IMG/VR virus record: IMGVR_UViG_2609459833_000010
Location: 1 to 5,101 of that record
Length of the DNA stretch: 5,101 nt
Strand: one strand, 5' to 3'
DNA from: a virus
Lineage: Duplodnaviria; Heunggongvirae; Uroviricota; Caudoviricetes
The notes beneath the pieces were generated by a model. The model was not told the DNA's origin, did no database searches, and was given only the letters and a program-made list of their open reading frames with translations. Both the position numbers and the translations under genes were made by a program. Positions 1 to 5,101 of this stretch are shown here, piece by piece (position 1 is the stretch's first letter; the number at the start of each line of letters is the position of its first letter).

Positions 1-276
1 CAGGCTAACTGGCCGAATCTTGCCACGTTCTTCGCTTATCCAACGGACATCCGCAAAGTGATCTATACGACGAATGCCATCGAGTCGCTAAACAGCGTGA
101 TCCGCCATGCGATCAAAAAGCGTAAAGTGTTCCCGACAGACGACTCGGTGAAAAAAGTGGTGTGGCTGGCAATCCAGGCGGCTTCACAGAAATGGACGAT
201 GCCACTGCGGGACTGGCGTATGGCAATGAGCCGCTTTATTATCGAGTTCGGTGACCGCCTGGACGGCCACTTCTGA
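1..276 (+). CDS. IS256-family (Mutator-type) transposase, C-terminal fragment; the 5' end lies upstream of the window
   Basis: Frame 1 is open from base 1 to the stop at 274-276. The translation (QANWPNLATFFAYPTDIRKVIYTTNAIESLNSVIRHAIKKRKVFPTDDSVKK...KWTMPLRDWRMAMSRFIIEFGDRLDGHF) carries the C-terminal motifs typical of IS256-family transposases (YTTNxIESLN, KWTMP, F..RL). Recognised from memory, not searched. Confidence 0.8.
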   Translation, partial: QANWPNLATFFAYPTDIRKVIYTTNAIESLNSVIRHAIKKRKVFPTDDSVKKVVWLAIQAASQKWTMPLRDWRMAMSRFIIEFGDRLDGHF

Positions 277-290
277 GAAAAGGTATTTAC
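1..290 (+). mobile_element. Right-hand end of an IS256-family insertion sequence; the exact terminus is not determined
   Basis: Inferred from the transposase 3' end at 1-276. The terminal inverted repeat could not be located from sequence alone. The element must end within a few tens of bp of the stop and may overlap the 3' end of the convergent gene at 287-523. Confidence 0.45.
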
Positions 291-523
291 ACAGAATCCT
301 GAACAGGCTCTCCCCATTGTTTGTTCTTAAGTTCGATCTCCTCCTGGCAACTTGCACAAGTCCGACAACCCTGAACAGCCAGGCGTCTTCGCTCATCTAT
401 CGGATCGCCACACTCACAACAATGAGTTGCGGATACAGTCTGGTAGTTCAGACGACGCATTTTTATTGCTGTATTGCGCTGTAATTCTTCGATTTCTGAT
501 GCTGAATCAATGATGTCTGCCAT
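287..523 (-). CDS. TraR/DksA-family C4 zinc-finger protein (phage TraR-like, of the lambda Orf73 class)
   Basis: 78-aa ORF with an ATG start. It contains C-x2-C-x17-C-x2-C (CCEC...GDPIDERRRLAVQGCRT...CASC), the zinc-finger signature of TraR/DksA proteins, and its size matches F-plasmid TraR (73 aa). Confidence 0.8.
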   Translation of the reverse strand: MADIIDSASEIEELQRNTAIKMRRLNYQTVSATHCCECGDPIDERRRLAVQGCRTCASCQEEIELKNKQWGEPVQDSV

Positions 524-576
524 CTTTCATTAATCCCTGAATTGTTGGTTAATACGCTTGAGGGTAAATGCGAATA

Positions 577-600
577 ATAAAAAAGGAGCCTGTAGCTCCC
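577..600 (-). terminator. Weak candidate intrinsic terminator for the minus strand
   Basis: On the minus strand, a GGAGC / 5-nt loop / GCTCC hairpin (586-600) is followed by TTTTTTATT (577-585), about 20 nt after the stop of the 622-903 ORF. The stem is only 5 bp. Confidence 0.3.
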
Positions 601-621
601 TGATGATTTTGCTTTTCATGT

Positions 622-903
622 TCATCGTTCCTTAAAGACGCCGTTCAACATGCCGATCGCCAGGCTTAAATGAGTCGGTGTGAATCCCATCAGCGTTACC
701 GTTTCGCGGTGCTTCTTTAGTACGCTACGGCAAATGTCATCGACGTTTTTATCCGGAAACTGCTGTCTGGCTTTTTTGATTTCAGAATTAGCCTGACGGG
801 CAATGCTGCGAAGGGCGTTTTCTTGCTGAGGAGTCACTGAACAAGCCCCATGCCGGCAAGCATAAGCACACAGAATATGAAGCCCGCTGCCAGAAAAATG
901 CAT
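622..903 (-). CDS. Hypothetical small phage protein; the real start may be the internal GTG at 835-837, giving 71 aa
   Basis: 93-aa ORF from an ATG. The C-terminal 70 residues look protein-like (SEIKKARQQFPDKNVDDICRSVLKKHRETVTLMGF...), while the N-terminal 22 are Cys/His/Gly-rich and overlap another ORF. A GTG at 835-837 overlaps the stop of the 834-917 ORF. Confidence 0.45.
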   Translation of the reverse strand: MHFSGSGLHILCAYACRHGACSVTPQQENALRSIARQANSEIKKARQQFPDKNVDDICRSVLKKHRETVTLMGFTPTHLSLAIGMLNGVFKER

Positions 904-917
904 TCAGTGGTTGTCAT
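834..917 (-). CDS. Putative 27-aa hydrophobic single-helix peptide (MTTTECIFLAAGFIFCVLMLAGMGLVQ)
   Basis: Not in the supplied ORF track because it is short. Its ATG (915-917) overlaps the TGA stop of the upstream 914-1105 ORF as ATGA, suggesting translational coupling, and a purine-rich GAGAGAG lies 6 nt upstream. The product is almost entirely a transmembrane-like segment. Confidence 0.3.
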   Translation of the reverse strand: MTTTECIFLAAGFIFCVLMLAGMGLVQ

Positions 918-1105
918 ACCTGGTCTCTCTCATCTGCTTCTGCTTTCGCCACCATCATTTCCAGCTTTTGTGAAAGGGATGTGGCTAACGTATGAAATTC
1001 TTCGTCTGTTTCTACTGGTATTGGCACAAACCTGACTCTAATTTGAGCAAGGCTATGTGCCATCTCAATACTCGTTCTTAACTCAACAGGAGATGCTTTG
1101 TGCAT
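914..1105 (-). CDS. Small lambda early-left protein (orf60a/orf63 class), function unknown
   Basis: 63-aa ORF. It sits in the same position relative to exo as the small non-essential ORFs in phage lambda and overlaps the next ORF by 28 nt, as those do. Confidence 0.6.
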   Translation of the reverse strand: MHKASPVELRTSIEMAHSLAQIRVRFVPIPVETDEEFHTLATSLSQKLEMMVAKAEADERDQV

Positions 1106-1266
1106 ACCGCCTCCCGTTTATTATTTATCTTCTCAGCCAGCCGCTGTGCTTTCAGTGGATTTCTGATAACAGAAAGGCCGGGAAATACCCAGCCTCGCTT
1201 TGTAACGGAGTAGACGAAAATGATCGCGCCTACCCGGATATTATCGTGAGGATGCGTCATCGCCAT
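1078..1266 (-). CDS. Small phage protein immediately downstream of exo, function unknown
   Basis: 62-aa ORF ([62 protein letters not shown]). Its start overlaps the exo stop by 10 nt, so it belongs to the same leftward operon. Confidence 0.5.
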
Positions 1267-1937
1267 TGCTCCCCAAATACAAAACCAATTTCAGCCAGTG
1301 CCTCGTCCATTTTTTCGATGAACTCCGGCACCATCTCGTCAAAACTCGCCATGTACTTTTCATTCCGCTCAATCACGACATAATGCAGGCCTTCACGCTT
1401 CATGCGCGGGTCATAGTTGGCAAAGTACCAGGCATCTTTTCGCGTCACCCACATGCTGTACTGCACCTGGGCCATGTAAGCCGATTTTATTGCCTCGAAA
1501 CCACCGAGCCGGAATTTCATGAAATCCCGGGAGGTAAACGGGCATTTCAGTTCAAGGCCGTTGCCGTCACTGCATAAACCATCGGGAGAGCAGGCGGTGC
1601 GCATACTTTCGTCGCGATAGATGATCGGGGATTCAGTAACATTCACGCCGGAAGTGAATTCAAACAGGGTTCTGGCGTCGTTCTCGTACTGTTTTCCCCA
1701 GGCCAGCGCCTTAGCATTAACTTCCGGAGCCACACCGGTGCAAACCTCAGCCAGCAGGGTGTGGAAGTAGGACATTTTCATGTCAGGCCACTTCTTTCCT
1801 GAGCGGGGCTTTGCTATCACGTTGTGAACTTCTGAAGCGGTGATGACGCCGAGCCGTAATTTGTGCCATGCATCATCCCCCTGTTCGACAGCTCTCACGT
1901 CGATCCCGGTACGCTGCAGGATAATGTCCGGTGTCAT
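1257..1937 (-). CDS. exo: Lambda exonuclease (Red alpha), 5'-3' dsDNA exonuclease
   Basis: 226 aa, the length of lambda Exo. The sequence ([43 protein letters not shown]...) is recognised as essentially lambda Exo. Its start overlaps the bet stop by 4 nt, as in lambda. Confidence 0.96.
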
Positions 1938-2719
1938 GCTGCCTCCTTCTGCTCAGTGGCTTTCTGTTTCAGGAATCCAAGAGCTTTCACTGCTTCGGCC
2001 TGTGTCAGTTCTGACGATGCGCGAATGTCGCGGCGAAATATCTGGGAACAGAGCGGCAATAAGTCGTCATCCCATGTTTTATCCAGGGCGATCAGCAGAG
2101 TGTTAATCTCCTGCATGGTTTCATCGTTAACCGGAGTGATGTCGCGTTCCGGCTGACGTTCTGCAGTGTTAGCAGTATTTTCGACAATGCGCTCGGCTTC
2201 ATCCTTGTCATAGATACCAGCAAATCCGAAGGCCAGACGGGCACACTGAATCATGGCTTTATGCCGTAACATCCGTTTGGGATGCGACTGCCACGGTCCG
2301 GTGATTTCTCTGCCTTCGCGGGTTTTGAATGGTTCGCGGCGGCATTCATCCATCCACTCGGTAACGCAGATCGGATGATTACGGTCCTTGCGGTAAATCC
2401 GGCATGTACAGGATTCATTGTCCTGCTCAAAGTCCATGCCATCAAACTGCTGGTTTTCATTGATGATGCGGGACCAGCCATCAACGCCCACCACCGGAAC
2501 GATGCCGTTCTGCTTATCAGGGAAGGCGTAAATTTCTTTCGTCCACGGATTAAGGCCGTACTGGTTGGCGACGATCAACAATGCGATGAACTGCGCATCG
2601 CTGGCATCACCTTTAAATGCCGTCTGGCGAAGAGTGGTGATCAGTTCCTGTGGGTCGACAGAATCCATGCCGACACGTTCAGCCAGCTTCCCAGCCAGCG
2701 TTGCGAGTGCTGTACTCAT
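1934..2719 (-). CDS. bet: Lambda Beta (Red beta) single-strand annealing protein
   Basis: 261 aa, the length of lambda Bet. The sequence ([66 protein letters not shown]...) is recognised as essentially lambda Bet. A GAGG Shine-Dalgarno lies about 10 nt upstream. Confidence 0.96.
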
Positions 2720-2724
2720 CCGTT

Positions 2725-3021
2725 TTATACCTCTGAATCAATATCAACCTGATGGTGAGCAATGGTTTCAACCATGTACCGGATGTGTTCTGCCATGCGC
2801 TCCTGAAACTCAACATCGTCATCAAATGCACGGGTAATGGCTTTTTTGCTGGCCCCGTGGCGTTGCAAATGATCGATGCAGAGTGATTCAAACAGGTGCT
2901 GTGGAAGACCTTTTTCCATGTCGTCTGCCAGTTCTGCCTCTTTCTCTTCACGGGCAATCTGCTGGTAGTGACGCGCCCAGCTCTGAGCCTCAAGACGATC
3001 CTGAATGTAATAAGCGTTCAT
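2725..3021 (-). CDS. gam: Host-nuclease (RecBCD) inhibitor Gam, short form
   Basis: 98-aa ORF ([60 protein letters not shown]...[10 protein letters not shown]) recognised as lambda GamS. An AGGAG Shine-Dalgarno lies 7 nt upstream of the ATG. An in-frame stop at 3076-3078 with no start codon in between rules out the longer lambda-type form here. Confidence 0.94.
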
Positions 3022-3096
3022 GGCTGAACTCCTGAAAATGGCTGTGAAAATATCGCCCGCGAAATGCCAGGCTGATTAGGAAAACAGGAAAGGGGA

Positions 3097-3507
3097 TTAG
3101 TGATTCAGGCCGTTGCCTCGTCCGTCGAGAAAAACTTCCACGAGCAAATCACGGGTATAAGTGCGCTCGATGCCGCGATGCAGATATAGCCGTCCGCGTA
3201 AATTAGCTGATGCTGTCCAGGTACCATCTTTGTGTTTGACCAGCATTCCTGGCATGACCGCACCGCGATTAACGGTCTGCGTTCCGTAATGTTGATGAAC
3301 CATAAAAACTCCTGCCCGTAAGCTGGGCTGCTGAACATATAAAGACTTCTGCGCGTATTCAGGCGGTGGATGGCCGCCGGTTGTCATAACTAAGCCGCCT
3401 CGTTGAAGCGACTGAGGTATGAAATGTTGAGTTAATTTCAGCTGGTCACACCGACGTTCACGCGTCCGCTTCACCCCTCGCACTTCCCGGAGCCTGCTGA
3501 AATTCAA
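3097..3507 (-). CDS. Hypothetical Arg-rich protein or gene remnant; no ATG at the head of the ORF
   Basis: 136-codon open frame, and the plus strand here is closed in all frames. The frame opens right after a stop at 3517-3519 and its first start-like codon is TTG. The first ATG is codon 41, preceded by GAGG about 10 nt upstream, which would give 96 aa. No family recognised. Confidence 0.3.
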   Translation of the reverse strand: MNFSRLREVRGVKRTRERRCDQLKLTQHFIPQSLQRGGLVMTTGGHPPPEYAQKSLYVQQPSLRAGVFMVHQHYGTQTVNRGAVMPGMLVKHKDGTWTASANLRGRLYLHRGIERTYTRDLLVEVFLDGRGNGLNH

Positions 3508-3588
3508 GCTACGGATCTAAGCGGTCATCGCAACGGTGAATCAGGTGGTTGCCGTATCGTTGTGTTGTTGCGATATGATGATAATAGC

Positions 3589-3625
3589 TATTGCTATTGG
3601 TGATATCAATACTTATTGCTATTGG
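3589..3625. repeat. Two perfect copies of a 12-bp direct repeat, TATTGCTATTGG, 25 bp apart in AT-rich intergenic DNA
   Basis: Read directly: 3589-3600 and 3614-3625. Each copy is itself a GCTATT-type tandem, and both lie in the AT-rich spacer between the terminator at 3747-3774 and the ORF at 3097-3507. Confidence 0.5.
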
Positions 3626-3746
3626 CTGATGTGTTTTGATATTAAATGTTTGATAGCAAAAAGAATTAATTTTGTGACTTGCATCGCATAGCGATAACTG
3701 AAGCAGGGGCATGGTGGTTTTTTGAACGGTGTGTGATGAGGGGAGG

Positions 3747-3774
3747 CAAAAGAAAACCCGGCACGACGGCCGGG
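3747..3774 (-). terminator. Intrinsic (rho-independent) terminator downstream of the membrane-protein gene
   Basis: On the minus strand, a GC-rich hairpin CCCGGC-cgtcgt-GCCGGG (3757-3774) is followed by TTTTCTTTTG (3747-3756), starting 9 nt after the TGA stop at 3783-3785. Confidence 0.55.
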
Positions 3775-3782
3775 GAGGGGGG

Positions 3783-4289
3783 TCATTTTAATCTATCAAG
3801 GAGTGACTCTCTTTCCTTCTTCTCTGATTCTCTTCGGTTTAATAACGCTTTAAACTCTTGAAGCTCAACCATTATTTTATGAACGAATACACTGGTATAG
3901 AGAGAAATAAAGAGTAATCCACCTGAAATTTTTAAGACCCTGAAGAGTAGGGCTTGATCATTTGTGCTTGCTATTAACCCCAAGATTACAAACAAAGTTG
4001 AAAATACATAGAAAGCTAATAATAAAACCAATTTCAGTCTCTTGGATTTGACTATTGGCACTAATCGCCTAACCTCACTAGGGGTTAAAGACGAGTGGTC
4101 ATTGGCCTCATTTGCCTTAAAAATGGCTTGTATACAATATGATAATGGCAATTGCATGAGTCCAACCACAGCCCACGGAGCTGTTAGGACAACACCCGGT
4201 GTAATATAGCCCAATGCTGACTTGAACAAAAAGTAACCAGCAACATAGAAGACCAACATACCAATAAGGTGGATGATGTTCGATTTCAT
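3783..4289 (-). CDS. Predicted integral membrane protein (about 4 transmembrane helices, charged C-terminal tail), function unknown
   Basis: 168-aa ORF with an ATG start and a canonical AGGAGG Shine-Dalgarno 5 nt upstream. Hydrophobic stretches sit at about residues 5-22, 30-57, 85-107 and 112-136, followed by a Lys/Glu/Arg-rich tail (LQEFKALLNRRESEKKERESLLDRLK). The gene is AT-rich and starts 21 nt after the upstream gene's stop. Confidence 0.75.
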   Translation of the reverse strand: MKSNIIHLIGMLVFYVAGYFLFKSALGYITPGVVLTAPWAVVGLMQLPLSYCIQAIFKANEANDHSSLTPSEVRRLVPIVKSKRLKLVLLLAFYVFSTLFVILGLIASTNDQALLFRVLKISGGLLFISLYTSVFVHKIMVELQEFKALLNRRESEKKERESLLDRLK

Positions 4290-4310
4290 TATCGCCCTCC
4301 TTTTGGTAGG

Positions 4311-4781
4311 TTATTTTGCAACCAATTCTCCGGCATCAAGTTTTGAGAACAGCCACTTATGCATTTTTAAGAATAAATCATTTTCATCAATAATGCCATT
4401 GTTATGTTCAACGCTAATTTTTCCGGATAATTTTATCTCTTTTCCCGTTATTTCCCCACCGCCTTGAAGTTTGATGCTAATATCATCCTCATCTAGATGT
4501 CGTAGTGAGGTAGCAATACTGTCTATAACAGCTTGACCGCTATCATTTGTTTTTCTGAAGTATGTAATCTCGAGGCTTACTTGTAAATTGGCCTCATCTA
4601 ATGAATCTTTAATGTTTATATCATTTGCCCAGTTATCGCCAAAAAATGCTTTTAGTAGCGCACCTCCTTTCCCTATTGGGCGGTATTTTATTGTCTTCAC
4701 CGAACCATTTGAAAAGGAGGGTGTTTGGTTCTCTGAATTTTTAACTTCTGAAGTAATGGGTAATCTGATCTTACCCAGCAA
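4311..4781 (-). CDS. Hypothetical soluble protein, first gene of the two-gene cassette; 5' end apparently truncated by the IS3 insertion
   Basis: 156-codon frame ending in TAA at 4311-4313. The head of the frame (4766-4781) is IS3 inverted-repeat sequence and the first start-like codon is a TTG inside IS3. The native portion (4765 and below) has no ATG until near the C-terminus, and its only GTG (codon 28) has no Shine-Dalgarno. No family recognised. Confidence 0.55.
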   Translation of the reverse strand: MLGKIRLPITSEVKNSENQTPSFSNGSVKTIKYRPIGKGGALLKAFFGDNWANDINIKDSLDEANLQVSLEITYFRKTNDSGQAVIDSIATSLRHLDEDDISIKLQGGGEITGKEIKLSGKISVEHNNGIIDENDLFLKMHKWLFSKLDAGELVAK

Positions 4782-5101
4782 TAGTGGACACGCGGCTAAG
4801 TGAGTAAACTCTCAGTCAGAGGTGACTCACATGACAAAAACAGTATCAACCAGTAAAAAACCCCGTAAACAGCATTCGCCTGAATTTCGCAGTGAAGCCC
4901 TGAAGCTTGCTGAACGCATCGGTGTTACTGCCGCAGCCCGTGAACTCAGCCTGTATGAATCACAACTCTACAACTGGCGCAGTAAACAGCAAAATCAGCA
5001 GACGTCTTCTGAACGTGAACTGGAGATGTCTACCGAGATTGCACGTCTCAAACGCCAGCTGGCAGAACGGGATGAAGAGCTGGCTATCCTCCAAAAGGCC
5101 G
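4766..5101 (+). mobile_element. IS3 (IS3 family), left end and start of orfA; continues beyond the window
   Basis: The left inverted repeat begins at 4766 (TGATCTTACCCAGCAATAGTGGACACGCGGCTAAGTGAG...), followed by the orfA start at 4831. Recognised as the E. coli IS3 left end. Confidence 0.93.
4831..5101 (+). CDS. insE: IS3 OrfA (transposase N-terminal helix-turn-helix / leucine-zipper protein), 3' end outside the window
   Basis: Translation from the ATG at 4831 (MTKTVSTSKKPRKQHSPEFRSEALKLAERIGVTAAARELSLYESQLYNWRSKQQNQQTSSERELEMSTEIARLKRQLAERDEELAILQKA) is recognised as IS3 OrfA (InsE). It is absent from the ORF track only because no stop falls inside the window. Confidence 0.93.
   Translation, partial: MTKTVSTSKKPRKQHSPEFRSEALKLAERIGVTAAARELSLYESQLYNWRSKQQNQQTSSERELEMSTEIARLKRQLAERDEELAILQKA

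What the first reader, a model, noticed from the sequence alone, without database searches (positions are those of the whole stretch)
287..523. Phage-encoded TraR/DksA-like zinc-finger protein, a likely RNA polymerase secondary-channel binder
The C4 zinc-finger spacing and size match TraR-family proteins, which bind the RNA polymerase secondary channel and reprogramme host transcription without ppGpp. Phage copies act as host-takeover factors. Here the gene's 3' end is within about 10 nt of the stop of the convergent IS256-family transposase, so its C-terminus or terminator may have been altered by the insertion.
Basis: partly seen in the sequence, partly recalled or inferred. Interest (0 to 1): 0.4.

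Follow-up and report, generated by a model that had tools for sequence, protein, structure and literature searches.

The report
Prophage Orf73/TraR gene with IS-derived tail
This is an ordinary copy of the well-studied phage lambda orf73 gene, a small TraR-like zinc-finger protein that binds RNA polymerase, sitting in a decaying E. coli prophage where an IS1414 element has replaced its last amino acid and stop codon with seven IS-encoded residues.

Summary
Window 287-523 (minus strand) is a 78-aa ORF with a TraR/DksA C4 zinc finger (Pfam PF01258 above its cut-off). Its stop codon lies 10 nt from the stop of a convergent IS256-family (IS1414) transposase. The gene is the orthologue of lambda orf73: 85% identical to lambda Orf73, and identical over residues 1-71 to the 72-aa protein of phage 2G7b. 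It sits in the conserved exo-orf60a-orf63-orf61-orf73 block of a lambdoid prophage collinear with phage Perceval.

Lambda Orf73 has been shown experimentally to bind RNA polymerase, to inhibit rRNA and ribosomal-protein promoters without ppGpp, and to raise phage yield. All sequence hallmarks are intact here, and the predicted fold best matches RNAP-bound TraR.

IS1414 ends at 310 and phage DNA starts at 311, so native "...KQWG-L-stop" has become "...KQWG-EPVQDSV-stop". The change affects only the naturally variable extreme C-terminus, the tail is predicted disordered, and F TraR tolerates four extra C-terminal residues, so activity is probably retained. That is inferred, not shown.

The protein is already in RefSeq (WP_032270893.1). 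It is already known and of low interest.

The parts
287..523 (-). 78-aa Orf73/TraR-like CDS, a chimeric reading frame. Codons 1-71 are native phage sequence; codons 72-78 and the stop come from IS1414.
311..523 (-). Native phage part of the CDS (residues 1-71). It contains DxxDxA (D3, D6, A8), the zinc ligands C35/C38/C56/C59, extra cysteines C36 and C53 as in lambda Orf73, ExxRL (E44-L48) with R46/R47, and a C-terminal helix with invariant E64.
   Evidence: Phage homology starts exactly at 311. Alignments. Hallmarks as defined in PMC9239242 and PMC8614690.
287..310 (-). IS1414-encoded tail EPVQDSV plus the TAA stop, replacing native Leu72 and TGA.
   Evidence: Low pLDDT and coil in the model.
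281..310 (.). Terminal inverted repeat of IS1414 (30 nt, imperfect; outermost bases GAGCCTGT... read from the end).
   Evidence: Inverted-repeat arms L006 307-336 and 1592-1621 map to window 310-281. Independent IS1414 copies match up to about 312-314.
1..276 (+). 3' end of the IS1414 (IS256-family) transposase gene, convergent with the TraR-like gene.
   Evidence: Pfam PF00872; RefSeq annotation under the matches; full 402-aa transposase in L006.
573..601 (-). Terminator-like hairpin plus T-run between the orf61 homologue and the TraR-like gene. It is native and identical in lambda and 2G7b.
622..1266 (-). Upstream exo-xis block genes: orf61 homologue (622-903, 93 aa), orf63/DUF1382 (914-1105) and orf60a/DUF1317 (1078-1266).
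1257..3303 (-). exo (1257-1937), bet (1934-2719), gam (2725-3021) and kil (3097-3303), all in the same leftward operon.
3581..3625 (-). Candidate leftward promoter (TTGATA-17-TATTAT) with two TATTGCTATTGG repeats as candidate operators. This is an inference.
4766..5101 (+). Left end of an IS3-family element that truncates the phage 340-aa gene. It marks the other boundary of the phage segment.

Best explanation
The ORF is the orf73 gene of a lambdoid (Perceval-like) prophage of E. coli. Its product is a TraR-family protein of about 72 aa. By homology to lambda Orf73 and F-plasmid TraR, it inserts its N-terminal helix (DxxDxA tip) into the RNA polymerase secondary channel. It seats its zinc-bound globular domain on the beta' rim helices and beta'Si3, and lays its C-terminal helix on the beta lobe-Si1. 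In this way it inhibits rRNA and ribosomal-protein promoters without ppGpp and diverts host resources when the leftward early operon is induced. An IS1414 end now abuts codon 71, so the frame runs 24 nt into the IS inverted repeat. Leu72 and the stop are replaced by EPVQDSV and a new stop, giving a net gain of 6 residues. Everything the family needs lies upstream of the junction, so the protein most likely keeps its activity when expressed. The IS event also cut the gene off from the downstream hypothetical-xis-int end of the prophage, which is a decaying remnant with a second IS (IS3) further upstream. What is shown: gene identity, synteny, motif integrity, the exact junction and the predicted fold. 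What is inferred: RNAP binding by this allele, tolerance of the tail, and expression.
For: Family hits: Pfam PF01258 above its cut-off; PHROG 54 at E 6e-26; PDB TraR by sequence. The AlphaFold model (pLDDT 78; 89-94 over residues 31-70) has an N-terminal helix at 8-27, a zinc globule and a C-terminal helix at 57-69. Its best PDB fold hit is TraR bound to RNAP, 6n57_M, at E 4e-4 and TM 0.53/0.57, followed by YbiI, 5w1s TraR and DksA.

Orthology: 85% identity to lambda Orf73, and residues 1-71 identical to the 72-aa 2G7b protein. The gene sits in the exo-orf60a-orf63-orf61-orf73 order seen in lambda and Perceval. Window 311-4765 is collinear with Perceval at 97.7%.

Hallmarks: D3, D6, A8, C35, C38, C56, C59, R46, R47 and E64 are invariant or nearly invariant across F TraR, lambda, 2G7b and 80 homologues.

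Junction: phage homology starts at 311 and the IS1414 inverted repeat ends at 310.

Tolerance of the tail: natural homologues vary in their last 1-3 residues and by up to about 5 residues in length. Tail residues 71-78 have mean pLDDT 55 and are modelled as coil. F TraR with four extra C-terminal residues (LVPR) has unchanged activity (PMC9239242, PMC6970531).

Function of the orthologue: PMC9239242 shows RNAP binding, rrn and rpsT inhibition in vitro and in vivo, delta-dksA complementation, about 4-fold higher phage yield, and loss of activity with D3A/D6A.
Against: No experiment exists on this 78-aa allele. TraR's C-terminal helix contacts beta lobe-Si1 (PMC6970531), so a 7-residue acidic, proline-containing tail directly after that helix could perturb the contact or the protein's stability. 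NCBIfam TIGR02419 (TraR family) scores 53.5 bits, below its 59.7 cut-off. However, validated lambda Orf73 also falls short at 54.7 bits. Expression is uncertain: the prophage is defective, a conserved terminator-like hairpin lies just upstream, and no N-like antiterminator was seen. Model confidence in the N-terminal helix is only moderate (pLDDT 56-76).
Confidence: 0.85

Rival explanations
1. The IS-derived tail makes the protein a hypomorph or null, through misfolding, proteolysis or a disturbed beta lobe-Si1 contact. The ORF would then be effectively a pseudogene in a decaying prophage.
For: The junction falls directly after the C-terminal helix that contacts beta Si1 in TraR (PMC6970531). 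The tail adds Pro and two acidic residues. orf73 homologues are often found inactivated in prophages, with frameshifts inside the zinc finger or Cys substitutions among the 120 homologues. Orf73 expression is growth-inhibitory (PMC9239242), so loss could be favoured.
Against: Only one native residue, at a naturally variable position, is lost. Natural variants with tails up to 5 residues longer exist, for example P0064. TraR with LVPR added has full activity (PMC9239242). The tail is predicted disordered and does not disturb the modelled fold.
Confidence: 0.12
2. The coding sequence is intact enough, but the gene is silent in this strain. It would be a passenger in a cryptic prophage remnant, with no present role whatever its biochemical competence.
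For: The prophage segment is bounded by IS1414 and IS3, and the xis-int side is no longer adjacent. A terminator-like hairpin precedes the gene, and no N-like antiterminator gene is visible in the window or in L003. The allele is invariant in all 19 contigs found, so there is no sign of selection either way.
Against: A good promoter-like site with repeated operator-like motifs lies inside the window, downstream of the IS3, and all intervening genes (kil to orf61) are intact. Relatives without the IS3 keep the CI repressor and replication genes (L003), so SOS induction could still fire the operon. This reading is compatible with the best explanation and does not exclude it.
Confidence: 0.3
3. 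It is a DksA/TraR-fold zinc-finger protein with a function other than RNAP secondary-channel binding, for example a YbiI-like protein of unknown role.
For: The best PDB sequence hit by E-value is YbiI, 2kgo, at 1.2e-5, slightly ahead of TraR. The NCBIfam TraR models score below their cut-offs.
Against: The YbiI match covers only the zinc finger (residues 30-67), whereas the TraR match is full length, 1-70. The best fold hit is RNAP-bound TraR. The protein is 85% identical to lambda Orf73, for which RNAP binding and D3A/D6A dependence are demonstrated (PMC9239242), and the DxxDxA motif is present.
Confidence: 0.03

Closest known systems
Bacteriophage lambda Orf73 (exo-xis region; Gopalkrishnan et al. 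2022, PMC9239242)
   Same: 85% amino-acid identity with the same length class. Same position after orf61 in the exo-orf60a-orf63-orf61 block of the leftward early operon. Same DxxDxA, CxxC-17-CxxC and ExxRL motifs, and the same two extra cysteines (C36, C53). The upstream hairpin and ribosome-binding region are identical.
   Different: The C-terminal helix variant is EEIELKNKQWG here and EDLELISKQRGSK in lambda. The native end is replaced by 7 IS1414-encoded residues. Downstream genes are missing: ea22 and the rest in lambda, or hypothetical-xis-int in Perceval.
72-aa TraR-like proteins of phages 2G7b (YP_009910004.1) and Perceval (CAH1234856.1)
   Same: Residues 1-71 are identical to 2G7b and differ from Perceval at 3 positions. 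The surrounding DNA is 97.7-99.5% identical.
   Different: Those proteins end ...KQWGL-stop and are followed about 48 nt later by the next phage gene. Here the end is ...KQWGEPVQDSV-stop, followed by IS1414.
F-plasmid TraR (PDB 5W1S, 6N57)
   Same: Three-element architecture of N-terminal helix, C4 zinc globule and C-terminal helix. D3/D6/A8, the four Cys and the R48/R49 equivalents are conserved. It is the best fold match.
   Different: Only 31% identity. TraR is carried on a plasmid, not a phage. Lambda Orf73 activates promoters weakly if at all, unlike TraR (PMC9239242).
DksA
   Same: Shared zinc-finger domain (PF01258) and secondary-channel binding mode.
   Different: DksA is 151 aa with a coiled-coil N-terminal domain and needs ppGpp. 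This protein is half that size with a single helix.

Membership tests
DksA/TraR C4 zinc-finger superfamily (Pfam PF01258) | Profile match above the curated gathering score | tested here: met
   36.4 bits against a cut-off of 24.9, E 5.3e-9, residues 34-64
DksA/TraR C4 zinc-finger superfamily (Pfam PF01258) | Four zinc-ligand cysteines arranged CxxC-17-CxxC | tested here: met
   C35, C38, C56 and C59 are invariant across 81 sequences and align with TraR C37/C40/C58/C61
TraR subfamily (short, ppGpp-independent secondary-channel binders) | About 70-80 aa with a single N-terminal helix in place of the DksA coiled coil | tested here: met
   78 aa; the model has helix 8-27, a globule and helix 57-69; the best fold hit is RNAP-bound TraR 6n57_M at TM 0.53/0.57
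TraR subfamily (short, ppGpp-independent secondary-channel binders) | N-terminal DxxDxA motif | tested here: met
   D3-I-I-D6-S-A8, invariant in the alignment with F TraR and lambda Orf73. The motif is defined in PMC9239242.
TraR subfamily (short, ppGpp-independent secondary-channel binders) | Equivalents of TraR R48 and R49 (contacts to the rim helices and beta'Si3) | tested here: met
   R46 and R47 are invariant. The ExxRL form matches lambda Orf73 (PMC8614690).
TraR subfamily (short, ppGpp-independent secondary-channel binders) | C-terminal helix with a conserved acidic residue (beta lobe-Si1 contact) | tested here: met
   Helix 57-69 with pLDDT about 89-93; E64 is invariant. The helix is intact, and the IS junction lies after G71.
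TraR subfamily (short, ppGpp-independent secondary-channel binders) | NCBIfam TIGR02419 (C4_traR_proteo) score above its curated cut-off | tested here: not met
   53.5 bits against 59.7. Experimentally validated lambda Orf73 (54.7) and intact 2G7b (53.9) also fall short, whereas F TraR scores 80.5. The shortfall belongs to the whole Orf73 clade, not to this allele.
TraR subfamily (short, ppGpp-independent secondary-channel binders) | Direct binding to RNAP and ppGpp-independent regulation of rrn and r-protein promoters | not testable with these tools
   Shown for lambda Orf73 (85% identical) in PMC9239242. Not shown for this allele.
Lambda Orf73 orthologue group (exo-xis block) | Synteny: last member of the exo-orf60a-orf63-orf61-orf73 block on the leftward early strand | tested here: met
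   DUF1317, DUF1382, YqaJ exonuclease, RecT and Gam lie in order upstream, in the same order as in lambda and Perceval
Lambda Orf73 orthologue group (exo-xis block) | High identity to lambda Orf73, including the two extra cysteines | tested here: met
   85% identity, with C36 and C53 present. The extra cysteines are described in PMC9239242.
Lambda Orf73 orthologue group (exo-xis block) | Native C-terminus and stop codon | tested here: not met
   Leu72 and TGA are replaced by EPVQDSV and TAA from the IS1414 inverted repeat. This makes it a disrupted-end allele, not a different family.
DksA proper | About 150 aa with an N-terminal coiled coil | tested here: not met
   78 aa. The NCBIfam DksA models are not hit, and DksA structures align over only part of their length.
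IS1414 (IS256 family), the flanking element | Mutator-type transposase plus terminal inverted repeats | tested here: met
   PF00872. 99-100% identity to annotated IS1414 copies. A 30-nt imperfect inverted repeat at both ends of the 1315-bp element in L006.
IS1414 (IS256 family), the flanking element | 8-9 bp target-site duplication showing a simple insertion | tested here: inconclusive
   The only contig spanning the IS (L006) shows no duplication and has ireA on the far side. It is a short-read metagenome contig, and the IS1414-ireA junction also exists elsewhere without orf73. Searches for the reciprocal junction found nothing, but the positive control was also absent.

The most novel reading that the evidence does not exclude
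The IS1414-encoded tail (EPVQDSV) after the beta lobe-Si1-contacting helix changes the protein's behaviour without abolishing it. For example, it could weaken growth inhibition or shift promoter selectivity. A normally toxic phage takeover factor would then have been tamed and kept in an E. coli lineage in which the same IS event removed the excision and integration genes and locked the prophage in place.
Probability: 0.04. Interest if true: 0.35.

Novelty: already known. Interest (0 to 1): 0.1.

Why it matters
It matters little beyond correct annotation. The gene family, its mechanism and its phage role are published, and this exact protein is already catalogued (WP_032270893.1). The practical point is that the 78-aa product is an IS-phage chimera, not a natural length variant. 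It is a natural C-terminal extension of Orf73 that could serve as a ready-made test of how much the beta lobe-Si1-proximal end tolerates. The shared junction is also a clean lineage marker for the E. coli strains that carry this prophage remnant.

Tried and rejected
1. Resolving the far side of IS1414 failed. The window starts inside the IS, and nearly all public contigs with the junction also break there. The one spanning contig, L006, joins the IS to ireA with no target duplication. I first assumed that ireA usually carries IS1414 at that spot, then found that the element in L009 is unrelated at the DNA level. A further search showed that the exact IS1414-ireA junction does exist on five complete plasmids that lack orf73. 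L006 therefore cannot separate an assembly chimera from a real IS-IS recombination or adjacent deletion.

2. Exact-pattern scans for the junction and for the expected reciprocal junction in genome contigs and metagenome contigs all returned zero, including the positive control, so they are uninformative.

3. No complete RefSeq E. coli genome and no phage record contains the junction.

4. Rfam found nothing at gathering threshold in the window. In 3250-3800 it gave only one chance-level hit (CRISPR-DR16, E 0.61), so there is no recognisable put-like antitermination RNA.

5. PADLOC gave no meaningful hit for the TraR-like protein (mREase_II at E 0.0065, dismissed as noise) or for the two rex-position proteins.

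6. I considered and rejected that the sub-threshold TIGR02419 score argues against TraR membership, because validated lambda Orf73 behaves the same way.

7. I considered and rejected that the IS removed a native terminator. Intact relatives have none immediately downstream.

Full report
**Observation**

The window is contig JNRV01000145.1 of E. coli 3-073-06_S1_C2 (GCA_000704865.1), read in reverse. ORF 287-523 on the minus strand encodes 78 aa: MADIIDSASEIEELQRNTAIKMRRLNYQTVSATHCCECGDPIDERRRLAVQGCRTCASCQEEIELKNKQWGEPVQDSV. Family and structure searches agree:
- Pfam PF01258 (zf-dskA_traR): 36.4 bits against a gathering score of 24.9.
- PHROG 54, 'DksA-like zinc-finger protein': E 6e-26.
- F-plasmid TraR chains 5w1s and 6n57: full-length sequence matches at E 6.5e-5 and 1.6e-4.

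The convergent partial CDS at 1-276 is the 3' end of an IS256-family transposase (PF00872). It is 99-100% identical to elements annotated as IS1414. The two stop codons, at 274-276 and 287-289, are 10 nt apart.

**What the gene is**

The surrounding genes on the same strand are as follows:

| Window position | Gene |
|---|---|
| 622-903 | orf61 homologue |
| 914-1105 | orf63 (DUF1382) |
| 1078-1266 | orf60a (DUF1317) |
| 1257-1937 | exo (YqaJ) |
| 1934-2719 | bet (RecT) |
| 2725-3021 | gam |
| 3097-3303 | kil |

This is the lambda exo-xis arrangement. Lambda's own unannotated orf73 lies between ea22 and orf61 and translates to a 73-aa protein that is 85% identical to the window protein. The 72-aa protein of phage 2G7b is identical over residues 1-71. 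Window 311-4765 is collinear with the functional phage Perceval at 97.7% identity. In Perceval the gene is annotated 'dksA/traR C4-type zinc finger' and is followed by a small hypothetical gene, xis and int. The ORF is therefore the orf73 orthologue of a lambdoid prophage.

**The junction**

Phage homology begins exactly at window 311. In a contig that spans the whole element (L006), IS1414 is 1315 bp long with 30-nt imperfect terminal inverted repeats (GAGCCTGT...). The repeat nearest the gene corresponds to window 281-310. Intact phages read ...CAA TGG GGA CTG TGA (Q W G L stop). The window reads ...CAA TGG GGA | GAG CCT GTT CAG GAT TCT GTG TAA. Codons 1-71 are therefore native, and codons 72-78 (EPVQDSV) plus the stop are IS sequence.

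One native residue is lost and seven are gained. No native terminator was lost, because in 2G7b and Perceval the next gene starts about 48 nt downstream.

The chimeric protein is already catalogued as WP_032270893.1 / KDZ56281.1, 'TraR/DksA family transcriptional regulator', with n=11 E. coli in UniRef. It occurs on at least 19 public contigs. No complete RefSeq E. coli genome and no phage record carries the junction. L003 has the IS1414 junction but no IS3, while L005 has both, so the IS1414 event is the older of the two.

**Integrity of functional determinants**

The literature defines the TraR and Orf73 hallmarks (PMC9239242, PMC8614690, PMC6970531):
- an N-terminal DxxDxA motif that reaches the RNAP active site;
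- a C4 zinc motif;
- R48 and R49, which contact the beta' rim helices and beta'Si3, within an ExxRK/L motif;
- a C-terminal helix, including a conserved acidic residue, that contacts beta lobe-Si1.

The window protein has D3, D6 and A8. It has C35, C38, C56 and C59 with 17-residue spacing. It has E44-x-x-R47-L48 with R46 and R47, and it has E64. All of these are invariant against F TraR, lambda and 2G7b, and invariant or nearly so across 81 homologues. It also has the two extra cysteines (C36, C53) noted for lambda Orf73.

An AlphaFold model built with the 81-sequence alignment has mean pLDDT 78, and 89-94 over residues 31-70. It shows helix 8-27, a zinc globule and helix 57-69. Its best PDB match is TraR bound to RNAP (6n57_M, E 4e-4, TM 0.53/0.57), followed by YbiI, TraR 5w1s and DksA. 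The moderate TM-score and the 4-5 A rmsd agree with the published observation that free Orf73 models differ from RNAP-bound TraR in their helix angles (PMC8614690).

The one membership criterion not met is the NCBIfam TIGR02419 cut-off (53.5 bits against 59.7). Experimentally validated lambda Orf73 (54.7) and intact 2G7b (53.9) miss it too, so this says nothing specific about the present allele.

**Does the tail matter?**

Among 120 homologues, the segment after the second CxxC is 13 or 14 residues long in 82 cases. The last one to three residues vary freely (GL, GSK, GIQ, GVK, GSWI, GVRWS), and at least one natural variant is as long as the window protein (P0064, 78 aa). The window keeps everything through the conserved ...KNKQWG.

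The tail is modelled as coil with low confidence: mean pLDDT is 55 for residues 71-78 and below 50 for 76-78. F TraR with four extra C-terminal residues (LVPR) had the same activity as tagless TraR (PMC9239242, PMC6970531).

I therefore infer that the 78-aa protein retains Orf73 activity. This is inference, not demonstration. The tail follows the helix that touches beta lobe-Si1 and contains a proline and two acidic residues, so a hypomorphic effect cannot be excluded. I give that about 12%.

**Mechanism and expression**

Lambda Orf73 binds RNAP and inhibits rrn and r-protein promoters in vitro and in vivo as efficiently as TraR. It complements delta-dksA, slows host growth, raises phage yield about 4-fold after induction, and depends on D3 and D6. 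It activates promoters weakly if at all (PMC9239242). The same mechanism is the best-supported reading here.

Expression in this strain is uncertain. The prophage is a remnant bounded by IS1414 at 310 and an IS3-family element starting at 4766, which truncates a 340-aa phage gene. However, a 10/12 sigma-70-like site at 3609-3581 on the minus strand is flanked by two exact TATTGCTATTGG repeats. Related motifs sit in Perceval's CI/cro intergenic region. This suggests that the repressor-controlled leftward promoter lies inside the window, downstream of the IS3, with kil through orf61 intact between it and orf73.

A terminator-like hairpin with a T-run at 601-583 immediately precedes orf73. It is identical in lambda and 2G7b, so it is a native feature and not a consequence of the IS. 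No N-like gene and no known antitermination RNA was detected.

**What lies beyond the IS**

This is unresolved. L006 joins orf73, IS1414 and the 3' end of ireA with no target-site duplication: the flanks are CAATGGGGA and GACATTACT. That pattern would fit an IS-mediated deletion or an IS-IS recombination that removed the xis-int end. But L006 is a short-read metagenome contig, and the identical IS1414-ireA junction exists on five complete plasmids that lack orf73, so a chimeric assembly is equally possible. Scans for the reciprocal junction were uninformative because the positive control was also absent.

**Comparison and verdict**

The feature is a member of the TraR family, and specifically the lambda Orf73 orthologue group, with a trivial IS-generated C-terminal chimera. 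Nothing here departs from known biology, so the finding is already known and of low interest. The most novel reading still open is that the tail tames a toxic takeover factor in a prophage locked in place by the same IS event. Nothing positive supports it, and I rate it at about 4%.

Noticed in passing
window 3783-4765 (minus strand); intact copy at L003 5191-6741 and Perceval PERCE_42/43: A 340-aa soluble protein and a 168-aa multi-pass membrane protein lie directly downstream of the CI repressor on the same strand and end with a terminator-like hairpin (3774-3757). This is the position and architecture of lambda rexA-rexB. There are no Pfam, NCBIfam or PADLOC hits, only PHROGs of unknown function, so this is a candidate exclusion or abortive-infection cassette. 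In the window it is inactivated by an IS3-family insertion at 4766.
   Followed up: partly
window 3581-3625 (minus strand): A promoter-like site (TTGATA-17-TATTAT, 10/12) is flanked by two exact TATTGCTATTGG repeats 25 bp apart. Similar motifs occur in Perceval's CI/cro intergenic region (L010 8891 and 8943). These are candidate OL/pL elements of the kil-to-orf73 operon. No N-like gene or put-like RNA was detected downstream.
   Followed up: partly
window 573-601 (minus strand): A terminator-like hairpin (GGGAGCTACAGGCTCC plus a T-run) sits between the orf61 homologue and orf73. It is 100% conserved in lambda and 2G7b, which implies that orf73 expression needs read-through or antitermination.
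   Followed up: partly
window 622-903 (minus strand), compared with L002 (lambda) 3213-3525: The orf61 homologue here is 93 aa, as in Perceval and PHROG 303. Lambda's annotated 61-aa orf61, together with an overlapping 60-aa ORF in another frame, reproduces the 93-aa protein. The lambda reference orf61 therefore looks like a frameshifted version of a longer conserved gene.
   Followed up: no
homologue set P0001-P0120: Many database orf73 homologues carry frameshifts within the zinc finger, Cys-to-Arg/Tyr/Ser changes, or foreign C-terminal extensions of 83-102 aa. This suggests frequent inactivation of this growth-inhibitory gene in resident prophages.
   Followed up: no
L006 1-2166; L011 (plasmid NZ_CP060062.1): A metagenome contig joins orf73, a complete IS1414 and the 3' end of the siderophore-receptor gene ireA, with no target-site duplication. 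The same IS1414-ireA junction occurs on five complete E. coli plasmids within an IS mosaic. This is either an assembly chimera or evidence of IS1414-mediated recombination between a prophage and an ireA island.
   Followed up: partly
window 3097-3516 (minus strand): The start of the kil homologue is ambiguous. It is called as 68 aa (window contig, L004), 96 aa (L003 and L005) or 139 aa (the Perceval annotation). The PHROG and NCBIfam Kil profiles cover only the C-terminal 68 aa.
   Followed up: no
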